Shown here: positions 4,923 through 57,836 of the stretch, in pieces | Layout: every line of letters starts with the position of its first letter | Position numbering within the stretch: the first letter of the stretch is position 1 | Sequence record: CP089609.1 | Origin: a plasmid | Length of the DNA: 64,000 nt | Direction: 5' to 3' (one strand) | Notes under the pieces: generated by a model | Seen by the model: only the letters and a program-made list of their open reading frames with translations | Database searches by the model: none | Told to the model about the DNA's origin: nothing | Made by a program: the position numbers and the translations under genes

Positions 4923-5277
4923 GCACCAAAACTCCAGCCATGAACGACGTACACAACGCCTCAACGCACACGAACTTCGCTGCCACATTCTTCGTGTGCT
5001 GCAAGCAGCCGACGGTCCGCTGACCACGGCGCAGCTTCGCGATCGGATCAGCACATCGCTCGGTCGCACGGTGGTGATCGAAACTGTCTACCGGGCCTTG
5101 GCGATCCTGGCCGACCGCGGCGCGGTCCGCCGTACCGCGCGCTCCCAGGGCCGCCATACCCACTGGGTGGTGGCCGATGCCGCCTTAGTCGGCGGCCTTG
5201 GCCCAGATATTGCTGCCTCCGCCGTGACCGGATCGCCAGATCCACCGGCATATACCTCAGGCCATGAGCACCACTGA
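4912..5277 (+). CDS. Winged-helix DNA-binding protein (PadR/ArsR-like)
   Basis: 121-aa ORF; LRCHILRVLQAADGPLTTAQLRDRI...VYRALAILADRG matches a wHTH recognition pattern. Start is uncertain. Confidence 0.45.
   Translation: MSCEHQNSSHERRTQRLNAHELRCHILRVLQAADGPLTTAQLRDRISTSLGRTVVIETVYRALAILADRGAVRRTARSQGRHTHWVVADAALVGGLGPDIAASAVTGSPDPPAYTSGHEHH
5247..5266 (+). promoter_or_regulatory. Leaderless promoter/start motif GGCATATACCTCaGGcCATG (copy a)
   Basis: The motif ends in the ATG of 5264-6046. A TATACC hexamer sits at -13..-8 relative to the A of the ATG. Confidence 0.5.
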
Positions 5278-6046
5278 CCCCGTGCGCGATCCCGATGAGG
5301 CCGCAGATTGGCCCGACGACTGGGACTCTTTTGATGAGTCGGGCTACCTCGACAATGACGCGCCGGCAGCGGTCCCACGCGTGGAGTTGATTCCCTCGAT
5401 GTGGGCCTACTCTGACGGCGCAGAGCATCGCCCGCCGACCCATCGGCGCAAGATTGGTGTTGCCGTGGGGATCGTCGGTGTGGTTCTGGGCGCGCTGGTG
5501 TGGTGGTGGTCTGACCGATCCGACACGGCCAGCGCCGTGATCATCACCCCTGCCCCGGCCTCCGCACCGCCCAGCTCAGCTCAAGCGCCCGATGACTCGA
5601 CGTATGCCGCCGTGCCGACGATCGATGCTCCCCCGCCGACCGGCCAGCCAGCCACCGGCCCTGCCGACCAGGTAGCTGCCGGCTTCGCCGCCGACTACGG
5701 CAATCCCGGTACGGGCAAAGACGACTGGCTGGCCCGCATCAGTCGATGGACCTCTCCGCAGCTGTCCGACGGATACCGGTTGACAGACCCGAACCGGTTG
5801 CCAGAAGCAGTCTTTCAGCATCTTTCCCCGCCGCTCAACGATGACAGCGGCACGATCGTCTACAACGCGATCTACGACACCATGACGTTGGAAATCCGCC
5901 TAGGGTTCGTCGAGGACCGGTGGCAAGTCATCGCCGCGCTCGACACTCAATCCCACGTCGCTGACGTTTCTCCACCGGGCAGCACACCGGCACCGACTCC
6001 TCCGTTTCTTCCACCCGGGCTGACCCCAGTGCCCGCCGGAACGTGA
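5264..6046 (+). CDS. Pro/Ala-rich membrane-anchored hypothetical protein
   Basis: 260-aa ORF with a single TM helix (VAVGIVGVVLGALVWWW). The start codon sits directly after the conserved GGCATATACCTC..CATG motif. Confidence 0.55.
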   Translation: MSTTDPVRDPDEAADWPDDWDSFDESGYLDNDAPAAVPRVELIPSMWAYSDGAEHRPPTHRRKIGVAVGIVGVVLGALVWWWSDRSDTASAVIITPAPASAPPSSAQAPDDSTYAAVPTIDAPPPTGQPATGPADQVAAGFAADYGNPGTGKDDWLARISRWTSPQLSDGYRLTDPNRLPEAVFQHLSPPLNDDSGTIVYNAIYDTMTLEIRLGFVEDRWQVIAALDTQSHVADVSPPGSTPAPTPPFLPPGLTPVPAGT

Positions 6047-6176
6047 TCCTCAACTCCTCTCCTGGCCCTAATGGAGATCCCTCAGAACAGGACGCCCGCA
6101 TGCCCGAGCTGATCGTCCCCGCCGATCTCAACGACACCGCCGGATCGAACCCGGCGGCGCATCCCAGGCGGTCGTT

Positions 6177-8452
6177 ATGACGCGGCGCCGCGAATCTCAG
6201 CTTGTTTGGCGAGGCACCCAGGTGCCGTGGGTGGCCGCTACGCTGCTCGTCGGCTCGCTTGGCATCGCAGTCGCCGAGTGGTCACATTTGAGCGATCCTG
6301 AGCGAGTTCCCATGTTCGCAGCGGCCATCATGATGGCCGCGTCGCTGGCCGCCGCAGCGATCACCGCCATCTTCACCTACCAGGCCTCCAGACGGGCCAG
6401 CATCACAGCTGAGCTCGTCCAGGCGTTGCATCAAGTATTGGGGTGGTCCGAAGCAAGTCACGGAATTATCCGCGCCAGCTCCTGGAAATCATTGGATGCC
6501 AAGGCCAGTCGCCACGGAGTAGCACCGCAGAAGGTCCGGATGACCTACACGCCGGCAGCCTCCGCGGCGATCAAACAACAGACCGTCGCCGCCCGGGGAC
6601 GCAGCAGCGCCCCGACTCTTTCAGAACCCTCGACAGACGACGCCGCCGGGGCCAATCCCGACTGGCTTCGCGTCATCAAGGATCTGCTGGCAGAAACGCT
6701 CGGACAGCCCTACAAGCTGTCGGTAGACCGTCGACGCTGGCAGTTGACCGCCATCCCGCTATCCGACGCGGACGAACCAGAGGAAGAGCCAAAAGCGATA
6801 CAACGGCTCAGGGCGATCATGGCGACCCTGTTCGAGAACACCGCCACGGTCACCAGCTACGAGATGAACAGCAAGGGGCACATTACTGAGTTCGTGGTGA
6901 AGCACGACATATCGGCCAAACTTATTGGAACGCCACGCATTCACCGCATTGAGCGTGTCGTCACCACGGTGTTGCCCGGGCGCTGGCGCGGCGACTTCGA
7001 TTGGATGACTGACACAGTCACATTCCAGCTGCGGCCCACCCTGCCCAAGCTGGTGTGGCCCCGTGTCTACCCCGAGACTGCGGGTAATGCAGCTGCTCTG
7101 GCGGCCTACAGGAGCTGCAAGTTCGTCTACGCCTACGACGAAGATCGCAAGCCGATTTCCTGGGAGCCGCGAAAGGTACCGCACCGACTGATCATCGGTC
7201 CCACAGGCAGCGGCAAGACTAGTACGATCCACACCTTTATCACGCAGGCTTCGCGCGCCCACTGGGCGATCAGCATCGCTGACCGAAAGAACGTGGAGTA
7301 CAAGGGTTTCCGAGACTGGCCGAACGTTCAGATGGTGGCTACCAGGATCGAAGACCAGATCGCCCTGATCCACTACGCCTGGGTACTGATGAAACAGCGC
7401 TACGAAAGCGTCGAGACAGGTGCGGCGCGGATCGAAGACTTCCCACCGGTCTTGCTGGTGCTCGATGAATTCACTGAACTGGTCAAAGATATCGCAGCTT
7501 GGTATATCAAGCTGCGCGGCTCACGTAAGCCATCCGAAATCAAAGGGTGGCCCAAAGAACTACCGATCGAGGAGGAAGTTGGGTCGATTCTGCGTCTGGG
7601 CCGCACCGCCCGCATCCACATCATCATCGGCATGCAGCGTCCCGACGTGAAGTACGTCGAAGGCGAGAACCGTGACAATCTGACAGGTCGACAGTCCCTG
7701 GGCCGGCTTGGCCGCCAAGGCGCCGACATGCTGTGGGGCGACTACTACACCGGCACCACGATCCCGCCCGGGCTGCTCGGCCGGGGAATGGCCTATGACG
7801 ATCACGGTGACCCTGTCGAAGTACAGAACTTTTTCACTCCCGATCCGAACAAGCCCGACGACTTGGCCGATAGCAACGCCAACAAGGTTCTCAAGGCGCT
7901 GCGCCCGACCACCACCACCCACAAACGCATCGTGTTTGACACTCCGTTCGACCCGCACCAGGACGACGACTTTACATGGACTGACTACCTGGAGGCGCCC
8001 GTTTGGTATGCGACGGATCGTCCCGACTTGGACCCGATGAGCCCGAGTATCGGTTCAAGCCCAAGGCGTCGGCCACGGATCCGACGGCGGCCACCTCGGC
8101 TCTGGGACCCGGTCTTACCCCAAATGTCACCCCGCTGCGGCAGAGCACAACCAGTGGTGGCTCCAAGACGCGTCGCAGGGACGTTGAGGATGACAAGTGG
8201 GCTGGATACGGATCGCCGGCGCCGCGCGCCGTCGATGACCTCCTAATTGGCGACCTGGTGTGCGTGGATCCCGGCCATGGGGTGTGGGCAATCCTGGAGA
8301 AAGAGCCCGAACCCGACCCGATCGATCCTGATGCAGTGATGCTCAGCGTGCGCGGCGAAGGCGACCAGTTCGACCTACTAACTGTTCCCTCCGAGGGCAC
8401 GGTGGTCTCCCGCCCGCTACTTGACGACGACGAGGAATCCAGCGCCGCATGA
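6177..8452 (+). CDS. FtsK/SpoIIIE-family DNA translocase, TraB/TcpA-like conjugative coupling ATPase; apparent frameshift near 7985-8040
   Basis: Two N-terminal TM helices. Walker A LIIGPTGSGKTS, Walker B VLLVLDEFTEL and an arginine-finger region RLGRTARIHIIIGMQRP. After about nt 8030 the GC3 signal moves to a different frame (ORF 8003-8452, acidic C-tail) while the original frame turns Arg-rich. Confidence 0.7.
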
Positions 8453-8476
8453 CGCACGTGAAGAGGAGTTCAGGAC

Positions 8477-8779
8477 ATGACGCAACCCCAACAGTCCGGG
8501 GAACCGGACTGGGTCGAGACGTTCTTTCCGCTGATCATCGCCGGGATGATCGGGTTTGTGGTGTACATCCAGCGCGGCGCGATTCTCGGCTGGCTCGCCA
8601 CCGAACACATCCTTATCGCACCCGCAGCCCAGCCGCCGATAACGCTTTTCGAGGGCTACGGTATCGACGTTGCCCGCATCGCATTCCTACTCATTCCGGC
8701 CACAGTCGCGGTTATATCCGCGGTGGTTATCGGCTTGACTATCTGGCGCAATTGCACAGCTCCGCGGCGGCCTCGCTAG
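8477..8779 (+). CDS. Small membrane protein
   Basis: 100 aa with 3 hydrophobic helices and a GAAGAGGAG SD. The longer overlapping ORF 8449-9306 is Arg-rich junk in this part. Confidence 0.5.
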   Translation: MTQPQQSGEPDWVETFFPLIIAGMIGFVVYIQRGAILGWLATEHILIAPAAQPPITLFEGYGIDVARIAFLLIPATVAVISAVVIGLTIWRNCTAPRRPR

Positions 8780-9306: not shown

Positions 9307-9331
9307 CCAGTAGTCCCCGAGGAGTTCAGCG

Positions 9332-9604
9332 ATGCCAGCACAGTCCGGTGGCGACACCTACCCAATGACTGGAGATCCCGCGATCGACGAGGCGATCCGC
9401 CAGGTGTTCACCGATCTGGTCGACGTCCGTGACGCCCACGGCACGGGCCAAACTCCGGTGAGCGGCACCTATTTCACCGACGCGGCCAAAACGGCTTCGG
9501 CCATCCACACCGGGATCCAGGATGTCAGCCGGTCGGCCGGCACTCACTGGCACGGCGAGTCCGGCGATATCTACCAGGCAATCACCAAGCGCCTCGCAAC
9601 CTAG
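9332..9604 (+). CDS. Small hypothetical protein (90 aa)
   Basis: ATG preceded by a GAGGAG SD 8 nt upstream. Confidence 0.45.
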   Translation: MPAQSGGDTYPMTGDPAIDEAIRQVFTDLVDVRDAHGTGQTPVSGTYFTDAAKTASAIHTGIQDVSRSAGTHWHGESGDIYQAITKRLAT

Positions 9605-9639: not shown

Positions 9640-10976
9640 ATGAGTACCGACGGAGCGCAAGACACCCACACCGCGCCCGACCCGCGGGCCGCCACCCTGC
9701 CCAGTCCTCTGGCGGACCTTCTGAACTCCATCCCGAAACCGGCGGCCCCGGCCCCGGCACCGGCACCGGCCCCGGCACCTGCCTCCGGCGGCGGTGGTTC
9801 AGGCAACGGCGGCAAAGGCGGTGGCGGCAACCCCAAGGGCGGCGGCGGTAGCGGCGGACAAACCGGGTCGGGCGGCGGAGCCAACACAGCCTCTCAGACC
9901 GATCAGACCGCAGCCGGGGCCGTCGACGCGTCCGCCGCCAACTCTGCGGCTGGTTTCAACAACAGTCAGGGCAACCTCGACCAGCTGCGCGCCGAGATCG
10001 CACGCCTTGGACCGATCCTTGGCACTCCCGAAGGTGATCAGCAGTTGATGGAAGCGCTGCAGCGCTACCTCAATGCCGGCGGCGGACAGCTGCAGGCCAC
10101 CGATGGCGCTTCACAACAACAGGCTGGAAGCCTCCAGTCGCTGCTCGACCAGCTGCAAAGTGACAAGAAGTCGAAGTCCTCCAGCAAGGACGAAGACGAT
10201 GACAGCTCCGACCACAAGGACAAGGGCAAGGACGAATCGTTCAGTGCCAGCGACCTCAAAGACATGTTGTCGTCGCTGCCCCAGGCACTTCAAAGCCTCA
10301 ACCCCTTCGGGCAGCAGTCCCCGTTCGGTCAGCAATCCCCCTTTGGACAGCAATCTCCCTTTGGGCAGCAGTCCCCGCTCGGTCAGCAGTCCCCGTTCGG
10401 GCCGAACAGCAATTCGCCGACCAGCGGCGGTATCACCCCGGCGGCCAATCCGTTCGGATCACTTCCAGGCACAGGATCCAGCGGCAGTTCAGGCAGCAGC
10501 GGTGGAACGCCGGGTACCCCGGGTCTCCCTTCGACGCTCTCAAAACCGAGGCGGAGAAGGAGGGCGGCGACGGTGGCGACGGCAAGGACGACCCCAACAG
10601 CAAGAGCGTGACGTTGCCCAACGGGGAAACGATCGAGGCCGCTACCCCCGAGTTGGCCAAGGCCATGCGCGACAGCATCAACAACGACAACGCCGCAGCC
10701 GTGTACCAGGAGGCGGGCATCGACACCAGCCACGGCGAAAGTGTGGATCCCGACCAGGTACAGCCAGGCGATTGGGCCCGCTACGACGATGGCAGTATCC
10801 GGGTCGCGGCCGGACCCGGAAAAGTGCTCAACAACGGCCAGGTGGTCGACGTAACTTCGTCCTCAGGTGAAACCGACGGCTTCGAAGGCTGGTACTCACC
10901 ACCGGACAGCGGTGGCGATGCGAGCAGCAGCGGTGGCACGACGGACACCACCGTGACAGCAAGCAAGCATCAGTAG
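9640..10976 (+). CDS. Secreted/low-complexity repeat protein (PAPA run, Gly-rich GGxGG run, 5x FGQQSP), frame switches near 10505-10525
   Basis: ORF 9640-10611 and ORF 10608-10976 are both coding-like and meet at a CCCCGGG run. After GGTPGTPG the +1 frame reads SPFDALKTEAEKEGGDG..., while the original frame decays into RRRRRAATVATART. Confidence 0.55.
10305..10400 (+). repeat. Tandem 18-nt repeat x5 encoding FGQQSP
   Basis: ttcgggcagcagtccccg-like units repeated five times directly in the sequence. Confidence 0.85.
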
Positions 10977-10983: not shown

Positions 10984-12636
10984 GTGACTGCATCGACGAC
11001 AGAATCGGCGATCGACTGGTACTTCCAGGGCGCTGGGGACGGCTTGGTCGATTCCGCAGTGGCTTCCCTCGGCCAACCGCCGCCACCGATGATGGCGGTC
11101 CTTGCCGAACCCGGCACCATTTCGGTTCTACCGAGCTTGGATGCGTCGTTTCCGCAGCCGCCGTCTCCGTGGGCACACGTTCCCGAAATCGACTCCTGGG
11201 CGTGTGACACCGCGGTGCTGCGCCCGGCTCACGCACCGACGCGATGGCCGGTATTGCTGCCGCTGGGCATCGCCCGAGGTGGGGTACTGCTCGTAAGCCT
11301 CGAGGAGGTCCGTCCACTGGCGGTCACCGGTGAAGCCTCGGATGTGGCGGCCGTCCTGAGGGCCTGGGTGATGAACCTTCTGTTGACCCCGCGTCGTGTC
11401 GTGGCCTCGACGGTGCCCGCAACCAGGCAGCTCGACGTGGTGGGCAGCGACCGCTTCATCAGCGCCTCGGACGCCGAAGCGTTACGCCGCCGATGCGCCG
11501 ATCAGGGGGTCACCCCTGACGTTGTCATCCTCGACGACGGCTCGGACGCCGAGATGTTTCCCTCCACGCCCTGCGTGACCACCACACTGCCCGCGGCTGG
11601 ATGGGATTTCAGGGTTACCGGCTCGATGGCCACCCTCACCAACGCCGGCCGCCAACTCTCGCTTCCCCTCGACGCTGTCACTGCGATCGACGACACCACG
11701 TGGCACGACATGGTCGAGTGTCTACAGGACGATGTCGTCCAGGCACGCTCTGCGCCGCCGGCCGCACCCGAGGCACCCGACGCATCAGAGCTGCCCGCAA
11801 CGCTCCCCGCTCCTGCCGCACCGCACTCTGAGCCCGTCGAGACCATTGCGCCAGATGACGCGGATGACCAGGCTTCAGCAGACGAAGAAGAGCCCCACAT
11901 CTGGGTTCGTGTGATGGGTAGGCCGATCATCACACCACCCGGCGGGCGCACCATCGACGCTCAGGGCCGCGTCAACACGTGGACCTCGATCATCGCTTAT
12001 CTGGCCACGATCGCACGCCGCGGCGCCACACGCGAGGACATCCGCCGCGCCTGCTGGCCATCCAGCGAAGACTTGCCGACGCCGGAAACGGTCCGCCAAA
12101 ACCTCAGTCGGATCCGGCTTTTCCTCGGGCAAGGCCCTGACGGCGAGGAATTGCTTCCCCCGCTCACCCGGGGTGGGCGACGCTCAGACTCCGAACCCGC
12201 CCAGAAGGAGCAGCTCCACAAGTCCGTCCTCAGCGACTGGGAACGCTGGCTTCAGCTTGTCGGCGACAACCCCGAGGAAGCCACCGACGTGGCGTTGGCC
12301 AAGGCGCTGGCGCTGGTCCGCGGTCCCGCATGGGATGTCAGCGCAGACATCGCCAACCGCTACGAATACGCAAAGCACCTCGCTGACACGATGACCGACG
12401 CAATCCCCGACGCAGCCCTCATCCTGGCCGGGCGATGCATCAAGGACGAAGACACCGCCGGCGCCGCCGCGGCCGCGGCCGCCGGACTCAAAGCCAACCC
12501 CCAGCGCCAAGATCTGTGGCGGATCCTTTTGTCGTCCACATCTGACGGCGTCCTACGCGCACAGCTGGTCGACCAATTCCGGCAGACCGTACCCCACGGA
12601 GAGATCGAGCCCGAAACCAGAAAGTTATTGACTTGA
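10984..12636 (+). CDS. Hypothetical protein with C-terminal SARP/AfsR-like winged-helix + BTAD domain
   Basis: C-terminal third: IWVRVMGRPIITPPGGRTID...IIAYLATIARRGATREDIRRACW...VRQNLSRIRLFLG (OmpR-type wHTH of the SARP family), followed by a helical WERWLQLVGDNPEEATDVALAKALALVRGPAW BTAD-like segment. The N-terminal 300 aa are of unknown function. Confidence 0.5.
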   Translation: MTASTTESAIDWYFQGAGDGLVDSAVASLGQPPPPMMAVLAEPGTISVLPSLDASFPQPPSPWAHVPEIDSWACDTAVLRPAHAPTRWPVLLPLGIARGGVLLVSLEEVRPLAVTGEASDVAAVLRAWVMNLLLTPRRVVASTVPATRQLDVVGSDRFISASDAEALRRRCADQGVTPDVVILDDGSDAEMFPSTPCVTTTLPAAGWDFRVTGSMATLTNAGRQLSLPLDAVTAIDDTTWHDMVECLQDDVVQARSAPPAAPEAPDASELPATLPAPAAPHSEPVETIAPDDADDQASADEEEPHIWVRVMGRPIITPPGGRTIDAQGRVNTWTSIIAYLATIARRGATREDIRRACWPSSEDLPTPETVRQNLSRIRLFLGQGPDGEELLPPLTRGGRRSDSEPAQKEQLHKSVLSDWERWLQLVGDNPEEATDVALAKALALVRGPAWDVSADIANRYEYAKHLADTMTDAIPDAALILAGRCIKDEDTAGAAAAAAAGLKANPQRQDLWRILLSSTSDGVLRAQLVDQFRQTVPHGEIEPETRKLLT

Positions 12637-23262: not shown

Positions 23263-23342
23263 GTCCGAAGACTAAGCCGGGCCCCCGACAAACCTCGGCA
23301 CCATTGCGCAGTCTCGGCCATGACCGGTTTCACGTCGGAGCG

Positions 23343-23362
23343 GGCATATACCTGGGGACATG
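23343..23362 (+). promoter_or_regulatory. Leaderless motif copy b (GGCATATACCTgGGGaCATG)
   Basis: Followed only by a 39-codon Arg-rich ORF; may drive a short or non-coding transcript upstream of palindrome copy 1. Confidence 0.4.
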
Positions 23363-23436
23363 AGACCTCCCCGGACTCCTTGGCCCCCCAGCGAGCGACA
23401 ACGGACTCACAGCAGAAGCGCCTCACACCGCGTTTA

Positions 23437-23458
23437 TATACACCGCTACCGGTGTATA
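23437..23458. promoter_or_regulatory. Operator-like palindrome TATACACC-gctacc-GGTGTATA (copy 1); right half carries a TATAGT -10-like hexamer
   Basis: Perfect 8-bp arms with a 6-nt spacer, 38 nt upstream of the 23496 start. Confidence 0.6.
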
Positions 23459-25255: not shown

Positions 25256-25282
25256 TGAATGACCGGATGTCGCCCACCGACC

Positions 25283-25302
25283 GGCATATACCTCCGGGCA
25301 TG
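25283..25302 (+). promoter_or_regulatory. Leaderless motif copy c (GGCATATACCTCcGGgCATG)
   Basis: Ends in the start codon of 25300-26487. Confidence 0.5.
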
Positions 25303-32904: not shown

Positions 32905-33402
32905 TCAGCACCCGAAGCCCGGCGCAGCCAGGGTCAACCAATCAAGAATTTCGCGTTGCGGCAACGTCCATCCGTCGAGCGGGAGTTGTGCCACCACAAC
33001 GTGTTTATATGCCTGATATACCTCAGGCAGGACCGCGCAGCCGTCGTCGCATGCCGTGCAACACACGCGATATGACGGTGCAGCGCCCTGGGCCTGCCTC
33101 GACGTTGCGGTCTCCGCCGCGGTGAGCGGTTGCAACGTATCTCCATCCCAGCGGGCCCATACTTTTCCACTGCCCGAGCACACCGCGCATCGTGCGCGTG
33201 GGCCGAGCGCATGGATCAGCAATGAGCGGGCCAGGTCGGCCGGGCTGGATCCTTCGTAGCCCCAGCTAAGTCCCCCTGGGGCATGTTTGACGATGTGCGG
33301 TAGTGGCCCGACAACATGGTCATCGATCTCGATGACGACCAGCCGGGGTCCGGCGGGGTTGTCTGGACGGTATCCGCGATAGGTGACCGTACATCCGCTC
33401 AT
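32905..33402 (-). CDS. Hypothetical protein
   Basis: 165-aa ORF. Confidence 0.45.
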   Translation of the reverse strand: MSGCTVTYRGYRPDNPAGPRLVVIEIDDHVVGPLPHIVKHAPGGLSWGYEGSSPADLARSLLIHALGPRARCAVCSGSGKVWARWDGDTLQPLTAAETATSRQAQGAAPSYRVCCTACDDGCAVLPEVYQAYKHVVVAQLPLDGWTLPQREILDWLTLAAPGFGC

Positions 33403-36102: not shown

Positions 36103-36714
36103 CTATCCGCAGATGCTCGACTCGTGTTGGCGGTAGAAGGTCCGCGCGGCCGGCACCTCATCGGCGTAGGGCCCCAAGAACGCCGCTCTTTGCACTGCTT
36201 GCGCGGCAACGGCTTCCGGCATGTGTTGCCAGCCCGCGATCTTCTGCAGCGCGTCGAAGAACCGATGGGCGGCCATGCTCGGCGTCATCCGCTCGACAAC
36301 CGAACCCCAGTCTGGGCCTTGCAGAAACAGTCCCACGGCCTGGCCGTTGTCGAGGGCCAGACCGTCATGGCGCATCGCGAGGGATTCCGGCACGCGTGGG
36401 TTCGCCACATTCCGCATTCCGGTTTCACGCTGTGCGGCGATCAGTCCGGCGACGATGCCTCGCTGGGGGATCCCCATGTGTCGTCCGGTCGAGATGATCG
36501 ACACACCGTAGTCGGCCGGGCCGCTCACCTCGTGAGAGCATGGCGCCGCCGCTGTCGTCTCGGGCGCGGCGATAATGTCCGGGCTGACTATTCGAAGGCC
36601 CGCCAGCACCGGCGCGGCCAGCGCAATAACCAGGGAGGCCGCGGCGCCCAGGACCAGCCGCCGGCCGCGGCGATCGCCGCCCGCGCCCAGCACGCGCTCT
36701 TCAGGTGTGCTCAT
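36103..36714 (-). CDS. Secreted transglycosylase-like protein (paralog of the central domain of 3726-4922)
   Basis: GQAVGLFLQGPDWGSVVERMTPSMAAHRFFDALQKIAGWQHMPEAVAAQAVQRAAF aligns with GSIGIMQQQWPWWGTMQELMTPAIAARKFYEALLKVANWQNLPVTVAAQSVQGSAL. N-terminal TM. Its start sits at a conserved leaderless motif. Confidence 0.65.
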   Translation of the reverse strand: MSTPEERVLGAGGDRRGRRLVLGAAASLVIALAAPVLAGLRIVSPDIIAAPETTAAAPCSHEVSGPADYGVSIISTGRHMGIPQRGIVAGLIAAQRETGMRNVANPRVPESLAMRHDGLALDNGQAVGLFLQGPDWGSVVERMTPSMAAHRFFDALQKIAGWQHMPEAVAAQAVQRAAFLGPYADEVPAARTFYRQHESSICG

Positions 36715-36731
36715 GTCCTGAGGTATATGCC
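36712..36731 (-). promoter_or_regulatory. Leaderless motif copy d (minus strand) for 36103-36714
   Basis: The reverse complement reads GGCATATACCTCAGGACATG. Confidence 0.5.
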
Positions 36732-36822
36732 GGCACGCTCGCTGATCCGGTCAACTGGCTGCGCCTCCGATCGAGCCGCCCGTCTCTGACGCCGGATGTG
36801 TGACCGGAATAATCGATGGACG

Positions 36823-36842
36823 GGCATATACCTCAGGGCATG
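36823..36842 (+). promoter_or_regulatory. Leaderless motif copy e for 36840-37610 (divergent from copy d, 110 nt apart)
   Basis: GGCATATACCTCAGGGCATG. Confidence 0.5.
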
Positions 36843-38229: not shown

Positions 38230-38283
38230 CCCTGCCCAACACCCAACCATCGCCGCCGCGGTGACAGGATTGGCATGCGCGCC

Positions 38284-38303
38284 GGCATATACCTGTGGTC
38301 ATG
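38284..38303 (+). promoter_or_regulatory. Leaderless motif copy f for 38301-38807
   Basis: GGCATATACCTGTGGTCATG. Confidence 0.5.
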
Positions 38304-40835: not shown

Positions 40836-41216
40836 GCATTGGTGACGGGAAGCGTCGCGATCATCGTGTCGAATCGCCTTCTTTGATCTCGACGTGACGC
40901 GTCATAGCTGGTGACTCTCCTTCACATCCCCTGTGGTTGTACCGGCCAGGGTGACCCAATTCTGGTCATCGTCTCATTGGCGATTGTTTCCGCGACAGCC
41001 GATTCGTCGGCTGGACAGCAACACCCGCCACTACCAGCGGATTCACCCACGGCGGATACACCGCATTCGGTCTATATTTGCCACCACCCCTGTCCGCCCT
41101 CCTCGATGGCGGCGCGAGAGGGGCGATCGCACAGACCCCGTCCGCCCGTGCTCTTGAAAGACCCCATGCCACCCGAAAACCGGCAGCCCTGGACTGACCG
41201 GATCAGCCAACCCTGT

Positions 41217-41236
41217 GGCATATACCTCAGGTCGTG
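41217..41236 (+). promoter_or_regulatory. Leaderless motif copy g (GTG variant)
   Basis: GGCATATACCTCAGGTCGTG, upstream of the family-A gene 41398. Confidence 0.45.
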
Positions 41237-41371
41237 ACCACCACTCCCACGCTCCCTGCCGACTGGGCCATCCGGATCCGTCCCATGCCGCGGCGTGAAT
41301 CGCTCGCACGCACCGCGCACGCACTGCGCCGCCTCAACAAGGCACCCGCACGCGGCCAAGACAACTGACCC
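41234..41371 (+). CDS. Small leaderless ORF (45 aa) defined by the conserved promoter/start motif
   Basis: The GTG is aligned exactly as the ATG in the other motif copies; no other support. Confidence 0.25.
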
Positions 41372-47246: not shown

Positions 47247-47537
47247 GTGTGATGTAGGGGCACCGCCCTCGATCCGCATTTCATGTTGGAGCACCAAGGG
47301 ATATGACGCTCGCCGATGCGGCACTATTCGGTTACGCCAGCACCGACAACGCTCGGCCACCGGCAGTGGTGATGAGCTACGGCATGGGCCTGGATTCATC
47401 GTCATTGTTGCCGACCGCAGCTGTACTGCAGGGAATGTGACTGAGCACCTCACACACGCGGTGTGGGCGACACACACCCCGTGTGGGTCGCCTGGCTAGA
47501 GATGCGTACTGATCGTTGACCGGATCTCCGAAACCCC

Positions 47538-47558
47538 GGGCATATACCTGTGGGCATG
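47538..47558 (+). promoter_or_regulatory. Leaderless motif copy h for 47556-48902
   Basis: GGGCATATACCTGTGGGCATG. Confidence 0.5.
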
Positions 47559-48902
47559 AGCAACATGTCGACTCAGGCGACGACACTGGATGCCTTCAAC
47601 GACGCCCCGCACACCTGGATCGAATGCTGGGATGAGGAGGTCGAGCCGCTGCGAGCCGCGGCGCTGGCCGCCGGCTGGACGTGGCATTGCGTTGATACCT
47701 CCGAGGATCTCCCGGCCCTGCTCTGGGCCCTTGAGCTCGCCAGTTCCCGCCACCAGAACCTCATGCCGGCAGAGCGCCGGCGCTATCTGGCGGCGGTCGG
47801 CCACGTCGTGATCGCCGTCGGCCCCGGCTACCAGGGCAGCTACCGCTATCTGAGGTGGATTGCACGGGCGGGAGCGCGCACCGGAATTCACCTGGCTGTC
47901 GCTGCCAGCCACCGTCGAAACCCCCTGGCCCCTCAGGATCTCAAGGACGGCATCACCGATCCACCGAGTGCGTACGTGGGCCCGGTGTCCGGCTGCGCAG
48001 CCGCCGCGCGGTCCAGCGAGCACCCGTGGCTGCCCACGTCGCCCGATGGGCACGGGCCCGACGACTACAGCGCACCGGCGGCCGGTCTCCTGGGTGCCTT
48101 CCGGCATCGCCTGCGCCGGCGTCGTAACGCCGATCGTCGAGTCCGTCCAGAGCAGCGGGTGTGTTCGGAATCGGATCTGGCTTGGCTCGATGACGATCCT
48201 CGGGTTCAGCTGATCGTCGCTACGGCCACGCGCGAGGGATGGCGCCGTGAACCTGGCGCCCAGACGGCTGTGTGGCGGTTCGTGCACGACATCGGGACAA
48301 CCCTCACGGTGCACTGGGGGACTCCGGAGATGCCGCTACTTCACGCCGCAGCGACCGCGACGGCGACGGTACGTTGGGGCGCCGTCACCTTGCCCGTCCT
48401 GGTAGCTGCCGGCGACACCGCCAGCAGCCCGGCCGACAACATCGTCTTGGCTTGCGACGCCGACGCCCAGTGGATCGAATCGCAGATCGATCGGGTTCAG
48501 AACTTTCTCCGTAGCCATCCCGCCGAATATCGCGTCATGTCCCAGATCTCGGCCGACCCGCGCGCGCGTTCGGTGATCAATACCGCTGAGCAACACGGCT
48601 GGGAAATTCACCCGCACGACGTGGACAGGTGCACCTTCGCCCGAGGTGGAACCGAGATCTGGCTTCGCTGGGGCATCATCGATTGCCCATGGCCATTCCT
48701 CTATGCGCACACCGCCCCGCACGGCGATGGGCCCTCCGTCTACCTCTCTCATGGGGATGATCCTCCCGAGGAGCAGCTCGTGGCCATGCTGCGATTCCTC
48801 GCGGCCCCAGACACCGGCCCAACAGGCGCTTCCTCCAATGCAATCGAGCCGAAAGGCCACAGCTTCGAGTTAGGAGACACATCACTCAATACACCTAAAT
48901 AG
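47556..48902 (+). CDS. Hypothetical protein, paralog family A (long form)
   Basis: Homolog of 41398-42315 (see above). ATG 47556 sits at a leaderless motif. The stop overlaps a palindrome copy. Confidence 0.55.
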   Translation: MSNMSTQATTLDAFNDAPHTWIECWDEEVEPLRAAALAAGWTWHCVDTSEDLPALLWALELASSRHQNLMPAERRRYLAAVGHVVIAVGPGYQGSYRYLRWIARAGARTGIHLAVAASHRRNPLAPQDLKDGITDPPSAYVGPVSGCAAAARSSEHPWLPTSPDGHGPDDYSAPAAGLLGAFRHRLRRRRNADRRVRPEQRVCSESDLAWLDDDPRVQLIVATATREGWRREPGAQTAVWRFVHDIGTTLTVHWGTPEMPLLHAAATATATVRWGAVTLPVLVAAGDTASSPADNIVLACDADAQWIESQIDRVQNFLRSHPAEYRVMSQISADPRARSVINTAEQHGWEIHPHDVDRCTFARGGTEIWLRWGIIDCPWPFLYAHTAPHGDGPSVYLSHGDDPPEEQLVAMLRFLAAPDTGPTGASSNAIEPKGHSFELGDTSLNTPK

Positions 48903-48981: not shown

Positions 48982-50076
48982 ATGACCGCCGTCACTGATG
49001 TGTTCAGCGAAGACGAACTCGAGGCCGCCATCGGCAGCGGGTTCATCGAGTCTTTCCGGCATCCTCAGCTGCCACTGACCATCTACAACTACACCGAACG
49101 CGCCCAGTTTGAGACCGCCTGGAACGCCGCCACCCGCGCGTGCCGGGGCCTCATCGTCAACGACGATCGCCGGATCGTCGCCCGCCCCTGGGCGAAGTTC
49201 TTCGAGTACAAGCCGGTAGGCGGACAACACGGCCCCGTGGACCTCGACGCAGCTGTCGAGGCCACCGATAAGGTCGACGGATCTCTGGGCATCCTTTACC
49301 CCGCCGGCCACACGTGGGCGATCGCCACCCGTGGATCCTTCACCGGCAACCAGGCCGCTCACGCCACCACCCTCTATCAGCAGCGCTACGCCGGCGCCTG
49401 GTCCCCTGATCCCGAACTGACCTACTTGTTCGAGATCGTCTATCCGGACAACCGGGTCGTCCTGAACTACGGCGACACAGACGATCTCGTCCTTCTCGGC
49501 GCTTGCCGCATCGCTGACGGTGCATCCGTTACAGCAAGTTCGATCGGCGACTGGCCGGGGCCGCGTGCACAGACTCTGCCGGTCACAACCCTTCGCGATG
49601 CGTTGGCCTTCCCAGACCGGGCCAACGCCGAGGGCCTCGTGGTGACCGTGGTGGAATCCGGCCTCAAACTCAAACTCAAACAACGCGATTACGTACTCCG
49701 GCATCGCATGGTCACCGGGATGTCGGCGCTGGCGGTATGGGAGTACTTGGCCACGGGTGCGGGGATTTCAGGTCTGATATCGGATGGGCACCTTCCCGAC
49801 GAGCTCCACGACTGGGCCCGCGCCGTTGTCGCCGAGCTGCAAGGCCAGCATCTCGCGCTCAAAGATGCCGCCGAACAGGCACATGCAGAGATCATCGCGC
49901 GCCTCGAACCCGGGCACACCCGAAAGGACTATGCCGCCGAGGCTGTCAAACACGCTGACCTGAAAGGCTTCCTGTTCGCGCTCGCGGACGGGCGCCTGGA
50001 CAAGTTCGAGGCTGCGTTGTGGAAGTCCGTTCGACCTGATGCCAACGAACTGCGCTCCGAAGGGGCTTCCCGATGA
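48982..50076 (+). CDS. T4 Rnl1-family ATP-dependent RNA ligase
   Basis: Motif I TDKVDGSLGILY (compare T4 Rnl1 LTKEDGSLVSTY). N-terminal LTIYNYTERAQF...RACRGLIVN...RIVARPWAKFFEY parallels T4 Rnl1 RIFSYNYASYSDW..ALECRGIMFE..VRIASRPMEKFFNL. Later EGLVV..SGLKLKLKQRDY parallels [20 protein letters not shown]. About 364 aa, the same size class as gp63. Confidence 0.8.
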   Translation: MTAVTDVFSEDELEAAIGSGFIESFRHPQLPLTIYNYTERAQFETAWNAATRACRGLIVNDDRRIVARPWAKFFEYKPVGGQHGPVDLDAAVEATDKVDGSLGILYPAGHTWAIATRGSFTGNQAAHATTLYQQRYAGAWSPDPELTYLFEIVYPDNRVVLNYGDTDDLVLLGACRIADGASVTASSIGDWPGPRAQTLPVTTLRDALAFPDRANAEGLVVTVVESGLKLKLKQRDYVLRHRMVTGMSALAVWEYLATGAGISGLISDGHLPDELHDWARAVVAELQGQHLALKDAAEQAHAEIIARLEPGHTRKDYAAEAVKHADLKGFLFALADGRLDKFEAALWKSVRPDANELRSEGASR

Positions 50077-52680: not shown

Positions 52681-53603
52681 ATGTCCACCCGCTGGTTGAG
52701 CCCCTTGCGGTACCCCGGCGGAAAAGGGCGCATGGCCGACGCGTTAGCCGACGTGTTCCAACAGCAGTTCGGTCTGCTCGACGTCGAAGTATGGGCCGAG
52801 CCATTCGCCGGCGGCGCGGGGGCCGGACTGCATCTGCTCGATCGCGGCGTCGTCGACGAGGTCTGGCTGACCGAGAGAAACCCGGCCCTGGCCGCGTTCT
52901 GGCGCACCACCACCACCAACAGCGACGAACTGGCCGCGCGGGTCCGCACATGCCAACCCGACATGTCCACCTGGCACGCCGCGCGCGAGATCGTCGCGGA
53001 GGCGCGGACTGGCGCCGAGATCGCCGATCTCGACCTCGCATTCGCCGCCCTTCTCATCAACCGGTGCTCACGTTCAGGCATGGTCAACCCCAGTGTCGGC
53101 CCGATCGGCGGCAAGAACCAGAACGGCCGCTGGCACCTTCGCTCCCGATGGAACCCCGAGGGCCTGTCCGAACGCATCGATTCGATCGGACGGCTCGGCA
53201 ACCGGATCCGCGTCAGCGAAGGAGATGCGATCACACACATCGCGGAGTTGAACGGATCGGTGGGCATTGAGCACGAGCTCCTGCTGTTCGTCGACCCGCC
53301 CTATCTGGTCCAGGGCAACAAGCTTTATCACGACGGTATGACCTTCGACGACCACAAGAACCTCGCCGAGGCACTACCAACTGCGCAGCTCGCTGGCTGC
53401 TCACCTACGACAGCGACGAACGCATCCTCGGCCTCTATCCGGGCCATCGCATCCTGGCCTACGAGATCGCCCACACCGCTAACCAGGCCCGCATCGAAGA
53501 GGAATACGCGGTCCTATCCGACAATCTCGCGGTCCGCGACGACCAAAACCTACTCACCACGGGCGCATCCCGATGGGTCCAGCACGAGCCCACGCACAAC
53601 TAG
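52681..53603 (+). pseudogene. Dam-family N6-adenine DNA methyltransferase with apparent +1 frameshift near 53380-53390
   Basis: Motif I YPGGKGR, FAGGAG and motif IV FVDPPY are all present. After ...FDDHKNLAEAL the annotated frame turns to Pro/Ser/Thr junk, while the adjacent frame reads ARWLLTYDSDERILGLYPGHRILAYEI..., the canonical Dam C-terminus, ending at TAG 53601-53603. Confidence 0.7.
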
Positions 53604-53629
53604 TCCACCCCGCGAGGAAGGAAACCCGC

Positions 53630-53860
53630 ATGTCAACACCCACCGGCGACCACGAATGGACTAGCGAAGCTGTCGACGGCGCATCTCTAGTCCACCTGGC
53701 CCGCCTCGCAACGGCCGGCGACCAGACCGACATCGTCATGTACGTCCGCAGGCAGGCACACCGGCTCCGCACCCGGGCCCCACAAACGTCACAAGCGCTC
53801 ACCGCACTGATCGACGGAGCTGCCCCGCCTCCCAGCCCGCTACGTGGTGCAGCAACATGA
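53630..53860 (+). CDS. Small hypothetical protein
   Basis: ATG 53630 with a GAGGAAGGAAAC SD. Confidence 0.4.
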   Translation: MSTPTGDHEWTSEAVDGASLVHLARLATAGDQTDIVMYVRRQAHRLRTRAPQTSQALTALIDGAAPPPSPLRGAAT

Positions 53861-57209: not shown

Positions 57210-57282
57210 CCGACAAGTCCCCTTTCTCACCCCGACACTGACAATTGGATCGCCCACTGCTGACCGGATCGCCGGACCAGCC

Positions 57283-57302
57283 GGCATATACCTCCGGGCA
57301 TG
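57283..57302 (+). promoter_or_regulatory. Leaderless motif copy i for 57300-57713
   Basis: GGCATATACCTCCGGGCATG. Confidence 0.5.
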
Positions 57303-57713
57303 TCCACACATACACATACAGAAATAACGCCGACCGACAGCGATAGGCATCGCCACGAATTCCCGGTGGTAGAGACGGTATTGACCCTCGCAGTGACGCT
57401 GACTCCACTGGTGTGGGCTATGACGTCGGCGCCGACGCGCGGCATCTCGACCACGGGATCGTTTGTTGATGCGGTGTTCCCCTTCCCCGCCGGCACCTAT
57501 ACCGCATTCCTCGTCTTCGGGATCAGCCTCGTCCTCGGCGTCAGAATCGCTGTCAGAGCCGCGCGCACCTCGACAAGACTGCTGACCGTCACGGCGACCG
57601 TGCTCCTGGTCACCGCCGTTTCCCTCACAGTGAATGGCTTGTTCGGCATCGCGAGTGATACAGGCGGCATCTGTGTGGGATGTCCAGTGCACCCTTACCC
57701 TACGGCTCACTGA
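57300..57713 (+). CDS. Small membrane protein with C-terminal CxGC motif
   Basis: Starts at a leaderless motif; 3 TM helices. The C-terminal GICVGCPV is paralogous to the TICVCTG of 57948-58220. Confidence 0.5.
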   Translation: MSTHTHTEITPTDSDRHRHEFPVVETVLTLAVTLTPLVWAMTSAPTRGISTTGSFVDAVFPFPAGTYTAFLVFGISLVLGVRIAVRAARTSTRLLTVTATVLLVTAVSLTVNGLFGIASDTGGICVGCPVHPYPTAH

Positions 57714-57816
57714 AAGTCAGGCACCGGGCCGCCTGCCACACTGAAACGCACGGCATTGCCCCCGGCCCGCCGTTGCCGATGTTCACCTCGCCGGTGACCG
57801 GATCACCGAATCGGCC

Positions 57817-57836
57817 GGCATATACCTCAGGTCATG
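57817..57836 (+). promoter_or_regulatory. Leaderless motif copy j (tiny ORF, then 57948-58220)
   Basis: GGCATATACCTCAGGTCATG. Confidence 0.45.

What the first reader, a model, noticed from the sequence alone, without database searches (positions are those of the whole stretch)
5247..57836. Ten-plus copies of a conserved block GGCATATACCTCNGGNCATG that ends in the start codon: probable leaderless promoters of one regulon
The 17 nt immediately preceding the ATG/GTG of at least ten genes are nearly identical. These include the Pro-rich protein at 5264, the membrane protein at 25300, the transglycosylase paralog and FtsK-like ATPase (divergent pair at 36714/36840), the FtsK fragment at 38301, the family-A paralogs at 41234/47556 and the small CxC membrane proteins at 57300/57834. 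There is no Shine-Dalgarno; CCTCC is actually the same sense as the anti-SD. A TATACC hexamer lies at -13 to -8 relative to the A of the start codon, the spacing expected if transcription starts at the start codon (leaderless mRNAs are common in mycobacteria). Conservation beyond the -10 (CTCNGGNC, and codon 2 starting AG/AC) suggests a dedicated sigma factor, a regulator site or a translational signal.
Basis: partly seen in the sequence, partly recalled or inferred. Interest (0 to 1): 0.7.

Follow-up and report, generated by a model that had tools for sequence, protein, structure and literature searches.

The report
Repeated leaderless promoter of conjugative element
A 42-base two-part signal that ends exactly in a start codon is repeated ten times in this mycobacterial conjugative element and recurs in related elements of other mycobacteria. 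It is most likely one shared, non-standard promoter that switches a set of the element's genes on together as messages with no untranslated leader.

Summary
Ten copies of GGCATATACCTSNGGNC-ATG/GTG occur, against 0.07 expected by chance. Spacer and flanks are unrelated, so these are not duplication edges.

The bipartite element recurs in at least ten other mycobacterial assemblies and metagenome contigs, always with ATG/GTG 7 or 8 nt after ...ATACC. At an orthologous intergenic site, only the two boxes are conserved. The start-codon context (C at -1, A/G at +1), weak Shine-Dalgarno pairing and long ORFs from 7 of 10 start codons fit transcription starting on the start codon. The other three open 36-44-codon ORFs ahead of genes with their own Shine-Dalgarno sequence.

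The core contains no ANNNT in any register, so it is not a canonical SigA -10. The window is a T4SS-type conjugative element. The first motif-led operon encodes a 550-aa protein whose C-terminal half has the SARP fold (AfsR, EmbR). The upstream box sits where AfsR's upstream repeat sits.

Best reading: an activator-dependent, element-specific leaderless promoter regulon. The identity of the trans-factor is inferred, and no TSS data exist.

The parts
5225..5266 (+). Promoter copy 1 (TGACCGGAT-N13-GGCATATACCTCAGGCC-ATG). It heads a Pro-rich membrane protein (5264-6046) and a roughly 10-kb operon: FtsK-like ATPase, small proteins, the SARP-like protein and DnaB.
   Evidence: The orthologous site is conserved in L018, L008, L009, L024 and L026-L031.
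23321..23362 (+). Promoter copy 2. Its ATG opens a 36-codon ORF (23360-23470), followed by an SD-led gene at 23496-24518.
25260..25302 (+). Promoter copy 3, the only copy in the window with a 14-nt spacer. It heads a 395-aa protein (25300-26487).
36712..36753 (-). Promoter copy 4, one half of a back-to-back divergent pair. It heads a 203-aa paralogue of the N-terminal part of the NlpC/P60 protein (36103-36714).
   Evidence: Metagenome contig L033 has a similar divergent pair of motif copies.
36801..36842 (+). Promoter copy 5, the other half of the divergent pair. It heads a 256-aa FtsK-like ATPase paralogue (36840-37610).
38262..38303 (+). Promoter copy 6 (upstream box TGACAGGAT). It heads a 168-aa paralogue of an FtsK-like fragment (38301-38807).
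41195..41236 (+). Promoter copy 7, with a GTG start. It opens a 44-codon ORF (41234-41368), followed by the SD-led 'family A' gene at 41398-42315.
   Evidence: (the paralogue alignment is in register from residue 15).
47517..47558 (+). Promoter copy 8. It heads the 448-aa 'family A' protein (47556-48902). The following co-directional genes include an RNA ligase and a Dam-type methyltransferase.
57261..57302 (+). Promoter copy 9. It heads a 137-aa membrane protein (57300-57713).
57795..57836 (+). Promoter copy 10. It opens a 36-codon ORF (57834-57944) ending in TGA, then an SD-led paralogue of the 57300 gene at 57948-58220.
10984..12636 (+). Candidate trans-activator: a 550-aa protein with an N-terminal FtsK/EccC-like P-loop fold (the Walker A position reads GEASDV by eye) and a C-terminal SARP fold (OmpR-type winged helix plus BTAD). 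It is encoded inside the operon led by copy 1.
   Evidence: Trans_reg_C, E=0.0025, below cut-off; homologues named 'AfsR/SARP family' and 'bacterial transcriptional activator domain'; Foldseek: AfsR SARP domain 8k60_I E=2.6e-5; EmbR 2fez E=1.5e-4.
4996..5277 (+). Second, weaker candidate regulator: a small winged-helix-like protein encoded immediately upstream of copy 1. It is present only in a subset of related elements.
   Evidence: weak Replic_Relax, FUR and TrmB hits. Homologous sequence in L018, L008 and L009 and a 113-aa gene at the same position in L031. No gene is called at this position in L024, L026 or L028.
33010..33027 (+). Probable decayed copy of the core (TGATATACCTCAGGCAGG), with no upstream box and no start codon.

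Best explanation
The motif is an element-specific, bipartite promoter of a mycobacterial T4SS-type conjugative element.

Proposed mechanism, with coordinates relative to the A of the start codon:
- An upstream box TGACCGGAT(C/T) lies at -39..-30. An invariant AT-cored box GGCATATACCT lies at -17..-7. Together they position RNA polymerase so that transcription starts on the A/G of the ATG/GTG, with C at -1.
- The mRNA therefore has no 5' UTR. It is translated by the leaderless route, which in mycobacteria needs only a 5'-terminal ATG/GTG.
- The core lacks the ANNNT that SigA needs and the upstream box lies too far out for a normal -35. The promoter is therefore probably silent unless a dedicated factor binds.
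- The most likely factor is the element's own SARP-fold protein (10984-12636). It would bind the upstream box and recruit host RNA polymerase in the AfsR/PafBC 'sigma adaptation' manner.
- Because that protein is encoded in the first motif-led operon, the circuit would be self-reinforcing.
- The ten copies would switch on together. They cover the DNA-translocation/replication operon and modules encoding paralogues of the coupling ATPase and wall hydrolase, membrane proteins and nucleic-acid-repair/modification enzymes.

Shown: the anatomy, its conservation and its context. Inferred: the start site, dependence on an activator and the activator's identity.
For: Non-random and bipartite:
- 10 copies against 0.07 expected.
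- The upstream box is present at all 10 copies. Only two other exact TGACCGGAT copies occur in the window.

Independent recurrence:
- A genome scan specifying only the two boxes gave 15 mycobacterial hits, all with ATG exactly 7 nt after ATACC. None of 8 chance hits in other phyla had this.
- A metagenome scan specifying only the downstream half gave 5 sites, all with the upstream box at the same distance.

Unselected positions across 28 unique sites:
- T-7 in 28/28, C-1 in 27/28, A/G+1 in 28/28 and A+4 in 26/28.
- The spacer and flanks are at background.

Footprint: at the orthologous NlpC/P60 to Pro-rich-gene intergenic region of four elements, with neighbouring proteins about 39-78% identical, only the two boxes and the first codons are conserved. 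The spacer differs and indels occur.

Start-site context:
- C-1 and purine +1 match mycobacterial TSS preferences (PMC6448022, PMC4633059).

Translation signals:
- Anti-SD pairing is -2.3 kcal/mol on average for motif starts, against -5.4 for other genes. The genes after the three short ORFs show -6.6 to -7.4.
- 21 of 28 motif start codons open ORFs of at least 100 codons. My composition-based estimate for chance is about 7%. GC3 is 0.70-0.80 for the seven long window ORFs.

Not canonical SigA: there is no ANNNT in any register, and the sigma-70-type scan does not call the sites.

Activator candidate:
- SARP fold, names given by NCBI and UniRef to homologues and a sub-threshold Trans_reg_C hit.
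- The gene is present in every related conjugation module that I retrieved through its homologues.
- The upstream box at -39..-30 coincides with AfsR's upstream repeat at -40..-30 (PMC10936776).
- In the M. abscessus element, whose SARP-like protein is the most diverged (42-44% identity), both sites carry CCGAAAC instead of CCGGAT(C/T), while GGCATATACCT is unchanged.
Against: - There are no transcription start or expression data of any kind.
- SARP targets normally have two direct repeats 11 or 22 bp apart. Here only one box is conserved. Self-similarity at an 11-bp offset is below background, and a weak signal at +8 bp is not convincing.
- The recognition-helix sequence does not track the TGACGAGAT/TGACGGGAT variants.
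- The SARP assignment rests on fold and naming. Pfam, NCBIfam and PDB sequence searches give nothing above threshold.
- The strict invariance of an 11-nt core is more than a SigA -10 would require. It fits a dedicated sigma factor or a second DNA-binding protein at least as well.
- Only 64 kb of the element is visible, so a sigma factor encoded elsewhere cannot be excluded.
- A pRAW-like plasmid with a distant homologue of the SARP-like domain has no such motif in the 40 kb examined.
Confidence: 0.55

Rival explanations
1. Both boxes are the -35 and -10 elements of a dedicated alternative sigma factor. It could be a host sigma conserved across mycobacteria or one encoded on a part of the element outside the window. 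No separate activator would be needed.
For: - The geometry is bipartite with a fixed 12-13-nt non-conserved spacer.
- The 11-nt core is invariant in about 40 sites from elements whose SARP-like proteins are as little as 42% identical to the window's.
- ANNNT is absent.
- The core is unchanged in Mycobacteroides abscessus, which would fit a conserved host factor.
Against: - Pfam scans covered nearly all of the about 70 predicted proteins in the window. The only sigma-family signal was a sub-threshold Sigma70_r4 hit (E 0.003) inside the HipB-like HTH protein.
- From my own recollection of published consensus sequences, the motif resembles no known mycobacterial sigma consensus (SigC-M, SigF).
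- Taking nTGACC and TATACC as hexamers gives a 21-bp spacer, which is unusual for group 1-3 sigmas.
- The upstream box varies between element lineages while the core does not. That is easier to explain with two different readers.
Confidence: 0.25
2. The conserved core is mainly an operator. A repressor, for example the small winged-helix protein at 4996-5277 or one of the XRE/PadR-like proteins, binds the near-palindromic GGCATATACC. It would keep all backbone promoters silent until transfer is induced, as in plasmid kor regulons. This can coexist with the promoter reading.
For: - GGCATATACC matches its own reverse complement at 8 of 10 positions.
- The conservation is stronger than a -10 alone needs.
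- A winged-helix-like gene sits directly upstream of copy 1 in several elements.
- From my own knowledge, global repression of many promoters by one operator is established for conjugative plasmids such as RK2 KorA/KorB and pIJ101 KorA/KorB.
Against: - The two non-palindromic positions (C-15 and A-10) did not vary in the 28 sites tabulated, and the orientation relative to the gene is always the same. The sites were selected allowing at most one mismatch in this block, which inflates this invariance.
- 10 bp is short for a dimeric HTH operator.
- No small winged-helix gene is called at this position in the M. kansasii, M. abscessus and L028 elements, which still carry the core.
Confidence: 0.12
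3. The block acts at the RNA level. It would be part of a 5' UTR that serves as an unusual ribosome-loading or processing signal, with an endonuclease creating a leaderless 5' end. Transcription would start further upstream.
For: - There is no Shine-Dalgarno sequence.
- Conservation runs up to and slightly beyond the start codon (A+4, A+7), which general mycobacterial leaderless genes do not show (PMC4633059).
Against: - The second box lies 22 nt upstream across a length-constrained but sequence-free spacer. That is a DNA-geometry signature.
- RNAalifold finds no consensus structure or covariation in 28 sites.
- Two copies sit back to back and face outwards with only 92 bp between the two core blocks (125 bp between the start codons). 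That leaves little room for separate upstream promoters.
- C-1 and purine +1 fit a start site.
Confidence: 0.04
4. The copies are passive relics of recent duplication or of a small mobile 'promoter cassette' and have no shared regulation.
For: - Several motif-led genes are paralogues of one another: 41398 and 47556; 57300 and 57948; 36840, 38301 and 6231.
- One decayed copy exists at 33010.
Against: - The paralogues are only 26-39% identical in protein, yet their motifs are nearly identical.
- Flanks and spacers are unrelated.
- The motif is kept at orthologous sites in elements whose neighbouring proteins are about 39-78% identical.
- All of this indicates purifying selection on the motif itself.
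Confidence: 0.03

Closest known systems
SARP-dependent promoters of actinomycetes (AfsR at afsS; ActII-ORF4, DnrI, RedD targets)
   Same: - The activator has an OmpR-type winged helix plus a BTAD domain.
- The binding site overlaps or replaces the -35. The AfsR upstream repeat lies at -40..-30; here the box lies at -39..-30.
- The core promoter is poor or non-canonical and needs the activator.
- The host is an actinobacterium and the RNA polymerase is the host's (PMC10936776).
   Different: - Only one conserved box is present instead of two direct repeats 11 or 22 bp apart.
- The SARP fold is C-terminal and fused to an FtsK/EccC-like domain, not N-terminal.
- The targets are conjugative-element genes, not antibiotic clusters.
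- The core is an invariant 11-mer and the transcripts are leaderless.
- Binding has not been tested.
Canonical mycobacterial leaderless SigA promoters
   Same: - ATG/GTG lies at the presumed +1, with C at -1.
- There is no Shine-Dalgarno sequence.
- Short leaderless ORFs sometimes precede SD-led genes (PMC4633059, PMC6448022).
   Different: - Those promoters have (T)ANNNT at -13..-6 and no conserved -35.
- This motif has no ANNNT, has a strongly conserved upstream box, and is conserved through the discriminator to +4.
Global regulons of conjugative plasmids (RK2/IncP KorA/KorB operators; Streptomyces pIJ101 kil-kor), from my own knowledge
   Same: One short DNA signal is repeated at many promoters across a conjugative element. 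It coordinates transfer, maintenance and accessory genes.
   Different: - Those signals are palindromic operators for repressors laid over otherwise ordinary promoters.
- Here the repeated unit is the whole asymmetric promoter, including the start codon.
Start-associated sequences (SAS) of Cluster K mycobacteriophages, from my own knowledge (Pope et al. 2011)
   Same: A conserved short sequence sits immediately upstream of many start codons in a mycobacterial mobile element.
   Different: - As I recall it, SAS (GGGATAGGAGCCC) contains a Shine-Dalgarno-like core and lies a few bases from the start at variable distance. It is thought to be translational.
- This motif has no SD, has a fixed distance and has a second box 22 nt upstream.
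pRAW-like mycobacterial and Rhodococcus conjugative plasmids (T4SS-like locus with VirB4, an FtsK/VirD4-like ATPase and a BTAD-domain protein)
   Same: - The same kind of conjugation module is present. VirB4-like protein identity is about 36-40%.
- A BTAD/SARP-like protein is encoded at the distal end of the locus (PMC4173767).
   Different: - 40 kb of the M. vanbaalenii pRAW-like plasmid contains no CATATACC motif and no comparable repeated AT-rich word.
- No ESX-P1 locus is seen in the window.

Membership tests
Mycobacterial leaderless promoter (TSS = first base of ATG/GTG) | ATG or GTG at a fixed short distance downstream of the promoter's -10 region | tested here: met
   ATG/GTG lies 7 nt after ...ATACC in 36 of 40 sites and 8 nt after in the other 4. 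It was not part of the search pattern.
Mycobacterial leaderless promoter (TSS = first base of ATG/GTG) | No Shine-Dalgarno sequence; preferred C at -1 and purine at +1 | tested here: met
   Mean anti-SD duplex energy is -2.3 kcal/mol, against -5.4 for other genes. C-1 occurs in 27/28 sites and A/G+1 in 28/28.
Mycobacterial leaderless promoter (TSS = first base of ATG/GTG) | Experimentally mapped primary 5' end at the start codon | not testable with these tools
   No transcriptome data exist for any strain carrying the element.
Canonical SigA (sigma-70 type) promoter | (T)ANNNT -10 element between -13 and -6 | tested here: not met
   CATATACCTC contains no ANNNT in any register (criterion from PMC6448022). 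The sigma-70-type scan does not report any of the sites.
Canonical SigA (sigma-70 type) promoter | 16-18 bp spacer between the -35 and -10 hexamers | tested here: not met
   nTGACC ends at -35 and TATACC begins at -13, giving 21 bp. Hexamers at 17-18 bp would be GGCATA or GCATAT, which lack A-11 (and direct reading).
SARP family regulator (for protein 10984-12636) | OmpR-type winged-helix DNA-binding domain followed by a bacterial transcriptional activation (BTA) domain | tested here: met
   The AlphaFold2 model has pLDDT 78. Foldseek hits are the AfsR SARP domain 8k60_I (E=2.6e-5, TM 0.57 on the target) and EmbR 2fez (E=1.5e-4). This holds at fold level only. Sequence profiles are sub-threshold (Trans_reg_C E=0.0025) and a PDB profile search found nothing.
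SARP-dependent promoter | Two or more direct repeats spaced 11 or 22 bp, overlapping the -35 region | tested here: not met
   Only one conserved box is present. Identity of the box to the sequence 11 bp downstream is 1.57/8, against a background of about 2.1/8.
SARP-dependent promoter | Binding site positioned around -40..-19, ending about 8 bp from the -10 element | tested here: inconclusive
   The upstream box at -39..-30 matches the AfsR upstream repeat at -40..-30 (PMC10936776). The downstream repeat position is not conserved and the TSS is only inferred.
SARP-dependent promoter | Demonstrated binding and activation by the SARP | not testable with these tools
   This needs EMSA or footprinting, in vitro transcription or genetics.
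T4SS-type (MPF-FA/FATA-like) actinobacterial conjugative element (for the window as a whole) | VirB4-like AAA_10 ATPase, polytopic VirB6/ConG-like protein, cell-wall hydrolase and FtsK-like coupling ATPase in one cluster | tested here: met
   AAA_10 (16-1545, E=1e-31), NlpC/P60 (3726-4922) and FtsK_SpoIIIE (6177-8246). A weak CD3337/EF1877 mobilome membrane protein hit for 1542-3698. Synteny across. No relaxase was identified in the window.

The most novel reading that the evidence does not exclude
These mycobacterial conjugative elements may carry a self-contained transcription system that works independently of ordinary host promoters. In it, an FtsK-like/SARP fusion protein reads a single upstream box. 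An invariant 11-bp core that is invisible to ordinary SigA holoenzyme fixes initiation on the start codon. Dozens of element genes would then be expressed as leaderless mRNAs only when the activator is on. The FtsK/EccC-like domain might couple that switch to the state of the DNA-translocation machinery.
Probability: 0.3. Interest if true: 0.65.

Novelty: new variant of a known kind. Interest (0 to 1): 0.5.

Why it matters
Almost nothing is known about how mycobacterial conjugative plasmids or ICEs control their genes. This motif gives a precise, testable handle on that control. It is a 42-nt cassette with an apparent on/off dependence on an element-encoded factor, and it comes with a defined list of co-regulated genes.

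Three things would follow if it is confirmed:
- It would extend SARP-type activation from antibiotic clusters to horizontal gene transfer.
- It would show a promoter class in mycobacteria that lacks the ANNNT -10.
- It could supply a compact, tight, leaderless expression cassette for mycobacterial genetics.

The element family also occurs in clinically relevant species (M. kansasii, M. abscessus).

Tried and rejected
- Megablast of 9 kb of the window against the plasmid and phage collections found no match.
- An exact look-up of a window protein found nothing on record.
- A full-text search for the motif words returned only unrelated primer hits. The supplements of the M. smegmatis TSS paper do not contain the core.
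- A scan of viral contigs with the bipartite pattern gave 0 hits.
- Blastn of a 49-nt site against plasmids gave only chance-level hits.
- A PDB sequence search with the SARP-like protein or its family profile gave nothing. NCBIfam also gave nothing.
- I looked for a single-subunit or YonO-like RNA polymerase. The 798-aa protein (33657-36053) has no Pfam hit and no DxDxD motif, and its C-terminus looks FtsK-like by eye. I rejected this idea.
- Sigma-54 was rejected from my own knowledge. GG and GC are not at -24/-12 spacing, and actinobacteria lack sigma-54.
- A hairpin or ssDNA-promoter idea was rejected because RNAalifold finds no consensus pairs.
- A second direct repeat in the spacer was not supported.
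- Covariation between the recognition helix and the upstream-box variants was inconclusive.
- The idea that the ORFs at 57834 and 57948 form one gene broken by a stop codon was considered. The upstream ORF shows no similarity to the paralogue's N-terminus, and an SD precedes 57948.

Full report
**1. The observation**

The pattern GGCATATACCTCNGGNCATG, allowing up to 3 mismatches, matches ten times in the window. None has more than one mismatch. The sites are 5247, 23343, 25283, 36731 (minus strand), 36823, 38284, 41217, 47539, 57283 and 57817. Dinucleotide-preserving shuffles give a mean of 0.07 matches.

Printing 80 nt on either side shows that the flanks are unrelated. Every copy carries TGACCGGAT (at most one mismatch) 13 nt upstream of the block, or 14 nt at 25283. 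Only two other exact copies of that 9-mer exist in the window. The repeated unit is therefore bipartite and about 42 nt long.

All coordinates below count from the A of the start codon as +1. On that scale the upstream box lies at -39..-30 and the core GGCATATACCT at -17..-7.

**2. What the start codons open**

Seven of the ten start codons open long ORFs of 137-448 codons with GC3 of 0.70-0.80. Three open ORFs of only 36, 44 and 36 codons, at 23360, 41234 and 57834.

- The gene after 41234 starts at 41398. It aligns with its paralogue at 47556 in register from residue 15, so 41398 is the real start.
- The genes after the three short ORFs have Shine-Dalgarno-like sequences, with anti-SD duplex energies of -6.6 to -7.4 kcal/mol.
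- The ten motif start codons average -2.3 kcal/mol, against -5.4 for the other predicted genes.

Leaderless ORFs of 5-50 codons ahead of annotated genes are common in mycobacteria. [quoted passage not shown]

**3. Context**

The window has about 64% GC. It is part of a T4SS-type conjugative element (Pfam). Its genes include:

- Conjugation module: a VirB4-like AAA_10 ATPase (16-1545), a polytopic membrane protein, an NlpC/P60 hydrolase and an FtsK-like ATPase.
- Replication: a DnaB helicase.
- Minus-strand cargo: the Wadjet genes JetA, JetB and JetC.
- Other cargo: HipBA, an RNB nuclease, an RNA ligase, a Dam-type methyltransferase and a deaminase.

No sigma factor or RNA polymerase was found in the window. 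The only sigma-family signal was a sub-threshold Sigma70_r4 hit inside the HipB-like HTH protein. The VirB4-like protein is about 36-43% identical to those of large actinobacterial plasmids, including pRAW-like mycobacterial plasmids.

The motif heads co-directional gene blocks. Wadjet, HipBA and RNB do not carry it.

**4. Recurrence elsewhere**

- *Genome scan.* A scan of one genome per species with TGACCGGAT-N13-14-GGCATATACC gave 23 loci. Fifteen are from Mycobacterium or Mycolicibacterium: M. hubeiense, M. sphagni, a MAG and strain NPDC049093. Eight are scattered chance hits, about the number expected. All fifteen mycobacterial hits have ATG exactly 7 nt after ...ATACC, although the ATG was not in the pattern. 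None of the eight chance hits does.
- *Relaxed scan of those loci.* This raised the set to 28 unique sites. Positions that played no part in selecting the sites are strongly conserved: T-7 in 28/28, C-1 in 27/28, A/G+1 in 28/28, T+2 and G+3 in 28/28, A+4 in 26/28 and A+7 in 21/28. The spacer (-29..-18) and everything outside -39..+7 are at background.
- *Metagenome scan.* A scan with only the downstream half (GGCATATACCTCNGGNCATGA) returned five sites. All have the upstream box at the same distance, and one contig has a divergent pair of motif copies like the one at 36731/36823 in the window.

**5. Footprint**

The conjugation module is syntenic in M. hubeiense, M. sphagni and the MAG, at roughly 39-78% protein identity over the region aligned. 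I aligned the intergenic region between the NlpC/P60 gene and the Pro-rich gene from the four elements. Only GTGACCGGAT and GGCATATACCTCNGGNCATGAGCAC stand out as conserved islands. The 13-nt spacer differs and indels occur upstream.

More distant elements were fetched through homologues of the 550-aa protein (M. kansasii, M. abscessus and four others). They keep CATATACCT at the same position. The upstream box varies among them: TGACCGGAT, CGACCGGTT, TGACGAGAT, TGACGGGAT, and CCGAAAC in both M. abscessus sites. The ATG lies 7 or 8 nt after ...ATACC.

**6. What kind of promoter**

In M. smegmatis, 79% of promoters have ANNNT between -13 and -6. No -35 consensus exists, C is favoured at -1 and A/G at +1 (PMC6448022). 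Here C-1 and A/G+1 fit a start site on the start codon, but CATATACCTC has no ANNNT in any register.

TATACC at -13..-8 has the A at position 2 but lacks the final T. The invariant T-7 is one base too far. Reading nTGACC as a -35 gives a 21-bp spacer to TATACC. A simple sigma-70-type scanner does not report any of the sites.

RNAalifold on 28 sites finds no consensus structure. That result, the length-constrained but sequence-free spacer, and the back-to-back pair (only 92 bp between the two core blocks) all argue against an RNA-level signal.

**7. Candidate trans-factor**

The protein at 10984-12636 lies inside the operon led by copy 1.

- *Sequence.* By eye its C-terminal half reads like an OmpR-type winged helix followed by a BTAD. 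Pfam gives only a sub-threshold Trans_reg_C hit (E=0.0025).
- *Homologues.* Seventeen homologues exist (42-99% identity). One is named 'AfsR/SARP family transcriptional regulator' by NCBI (M. kansasii). Another is named 'Bacterial transcriptional activator dom...' by UniRef (M. abscessus).
- *Structure.* An AlphaFold2 model built on their alignment has mean pLDDT 78. Its top Foldseek hits in the PDB are the AfsR SARP domain in the S. coelicolor transcription initiation complex (8k60_I, E=2.6e-5, TM 0.57 on the target) and M. tuberculosis EmbR (2fez, E=1.5e-4).
- *N-terminal half.* It matches FtsK, EccC and TcpA motor domains. By eye, the Walker A position reads GEASDV, which suggests it is degenerate.

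In the AfsR complex, two SARP protomers bind two 11-bp direct repeats at -40..-19, and the upstream repeat lies at -40..-30. Sigma region 4 sits on the activator, an arrangement called sigma adaptation. The target -10 and -35 elements are poor (PMC10936776).

The upstream box here occupies the same position. A second repeat is not detectable, however. Identity at an 11-bp offset is 1.57/8, against a background of about 2.1/8. The recognition helix does not clearly covary with the box variants.

The same C-terminal domain, with other N-terminal fusions, is found in the conjugation loci of Rhodococcus and pRAW-like plasmids. The one pRAW-like plasmid examined lacks the motif.

A small winged-helix-like protein (4996-5277) just upstream of copy 1 is a weaker candidate. 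No gene is called at its position in several motif-bearing elements.

**8. Interpretation**

I am fairly confident (about 0.8) that this is a family of DNA-level promoters that start transcription on the start codon, and that they form a regulon of the element.

I am less confident (about 0.35-0.4) that the SARP-fold protein is the factor reading the upstream box.

The main rival is a dedicated sigma factor. It could be a host sigma, which the invariant core across distant hosts would favour, or one encoded outside the visible 64 kb. An operator role for the near-palindromic core may be superimposed on either reading.

Conservation of A+4 and A+7 is not a general property of mycobacterial leaderless genes (PMC4633059). 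It therefore more likely belongs to promoter or initial-transcription recognition than to translation.

**9. Novelty**

I found no description of this motif, or of regulation of this element family, in the held literature. All the ingredients are known:

- leaderless mycobacterial promoters;
- SARP activation;
- plasmid-wide regulons.

The combination is a new variant: a promoter without ANNNT, a single upstream box, an invariant 11-mer core, a fixed start codon and a candidate FtsK-like/SARP fusion activator in a conjugative element. It is not a new category.

Noticed in passing
window 10984-12636: The 550-aa protein fuses an FtsK/EccC/TcpA-like P-loop fold to a C-terminal SARP fold. By eye, the Walker A position reads GEASDV, which suggests a degenerate site. 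I have not seen this domain order described. The SARP-like half recurs in the conjugation loci of Rhodococcus and pRAW-like plasmids, where it is annotated as 'LysM' or 'BTAD' proteins.
   Followed up: partly
window 9332-9604: This 90-aa protein is conserved in the conjugation module. It has a W-x-G motif (HWHGES) and is about WXG100 size. It sits next to EccC/FtsK-like ATPases, which hints at a T7SS-like substrate inside a T4SS-type locus.
   Followed up: no
window 9640-10976; 21318-22822; versus L037: The close relative L037 is 99.3% identical with 8 gap openings. It has one 442-aa gene where the window has two ORFs in different frames (9640-10611 and 10614-10976). JetA also appears split in the window (21318-22568 and 22520-22822). 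These are either real pseudogenes or indel errors in the window sequence.
   Followed up: partly
window 17253-22822 (minus strand): JetC, JetB and JetA of a Wadjet (anti-plasmid) system are carried on what is itself a conjugative element. Relatives carry it at the same place (L028, L029, L037).
   Followed up: no
window 33010-33027: TGATATACCTCAGGCAGG shares 12 consecutive bases with the motif core but has no upstream box and no start codon. It is probably a decayed promoter copy, lying in an 800-nt gene-poor stretch.
   Followed up: partly
upstream boxes of the motif; window 52732-53664: In 17 of 28 sites the upstream box reads TGACCGGATC and so contains GATC. The element encodes a D12-class N6-adenine methyltransferase in a motif-led operon. 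Methylation-sensitive promoter control is conceivable but untested.
   Followed up: no
window 43839-44516 and 48982-50076: An AAA_33 kinase-like protein and a T4-type RNA ligase both lie in motif-led gene blocks. They suggest an RNA-repair (anti-anticodon-nuclease) counter-defence module.
   Followed up: no
window 41234-41368 versus L018 7756-7836: The 44-codon leaderless ORF shows weak similarity (48% over 27 aa) to an internal part of the VirB4-like gene of M. hubeiense. It may be a gene remnant or a chance match.
   Followed up: partly
L037 12928-14001: An IS481-family transposase is inserted in the close relative L037 but is absent from the window at the corresponding place.
   Followed up: no
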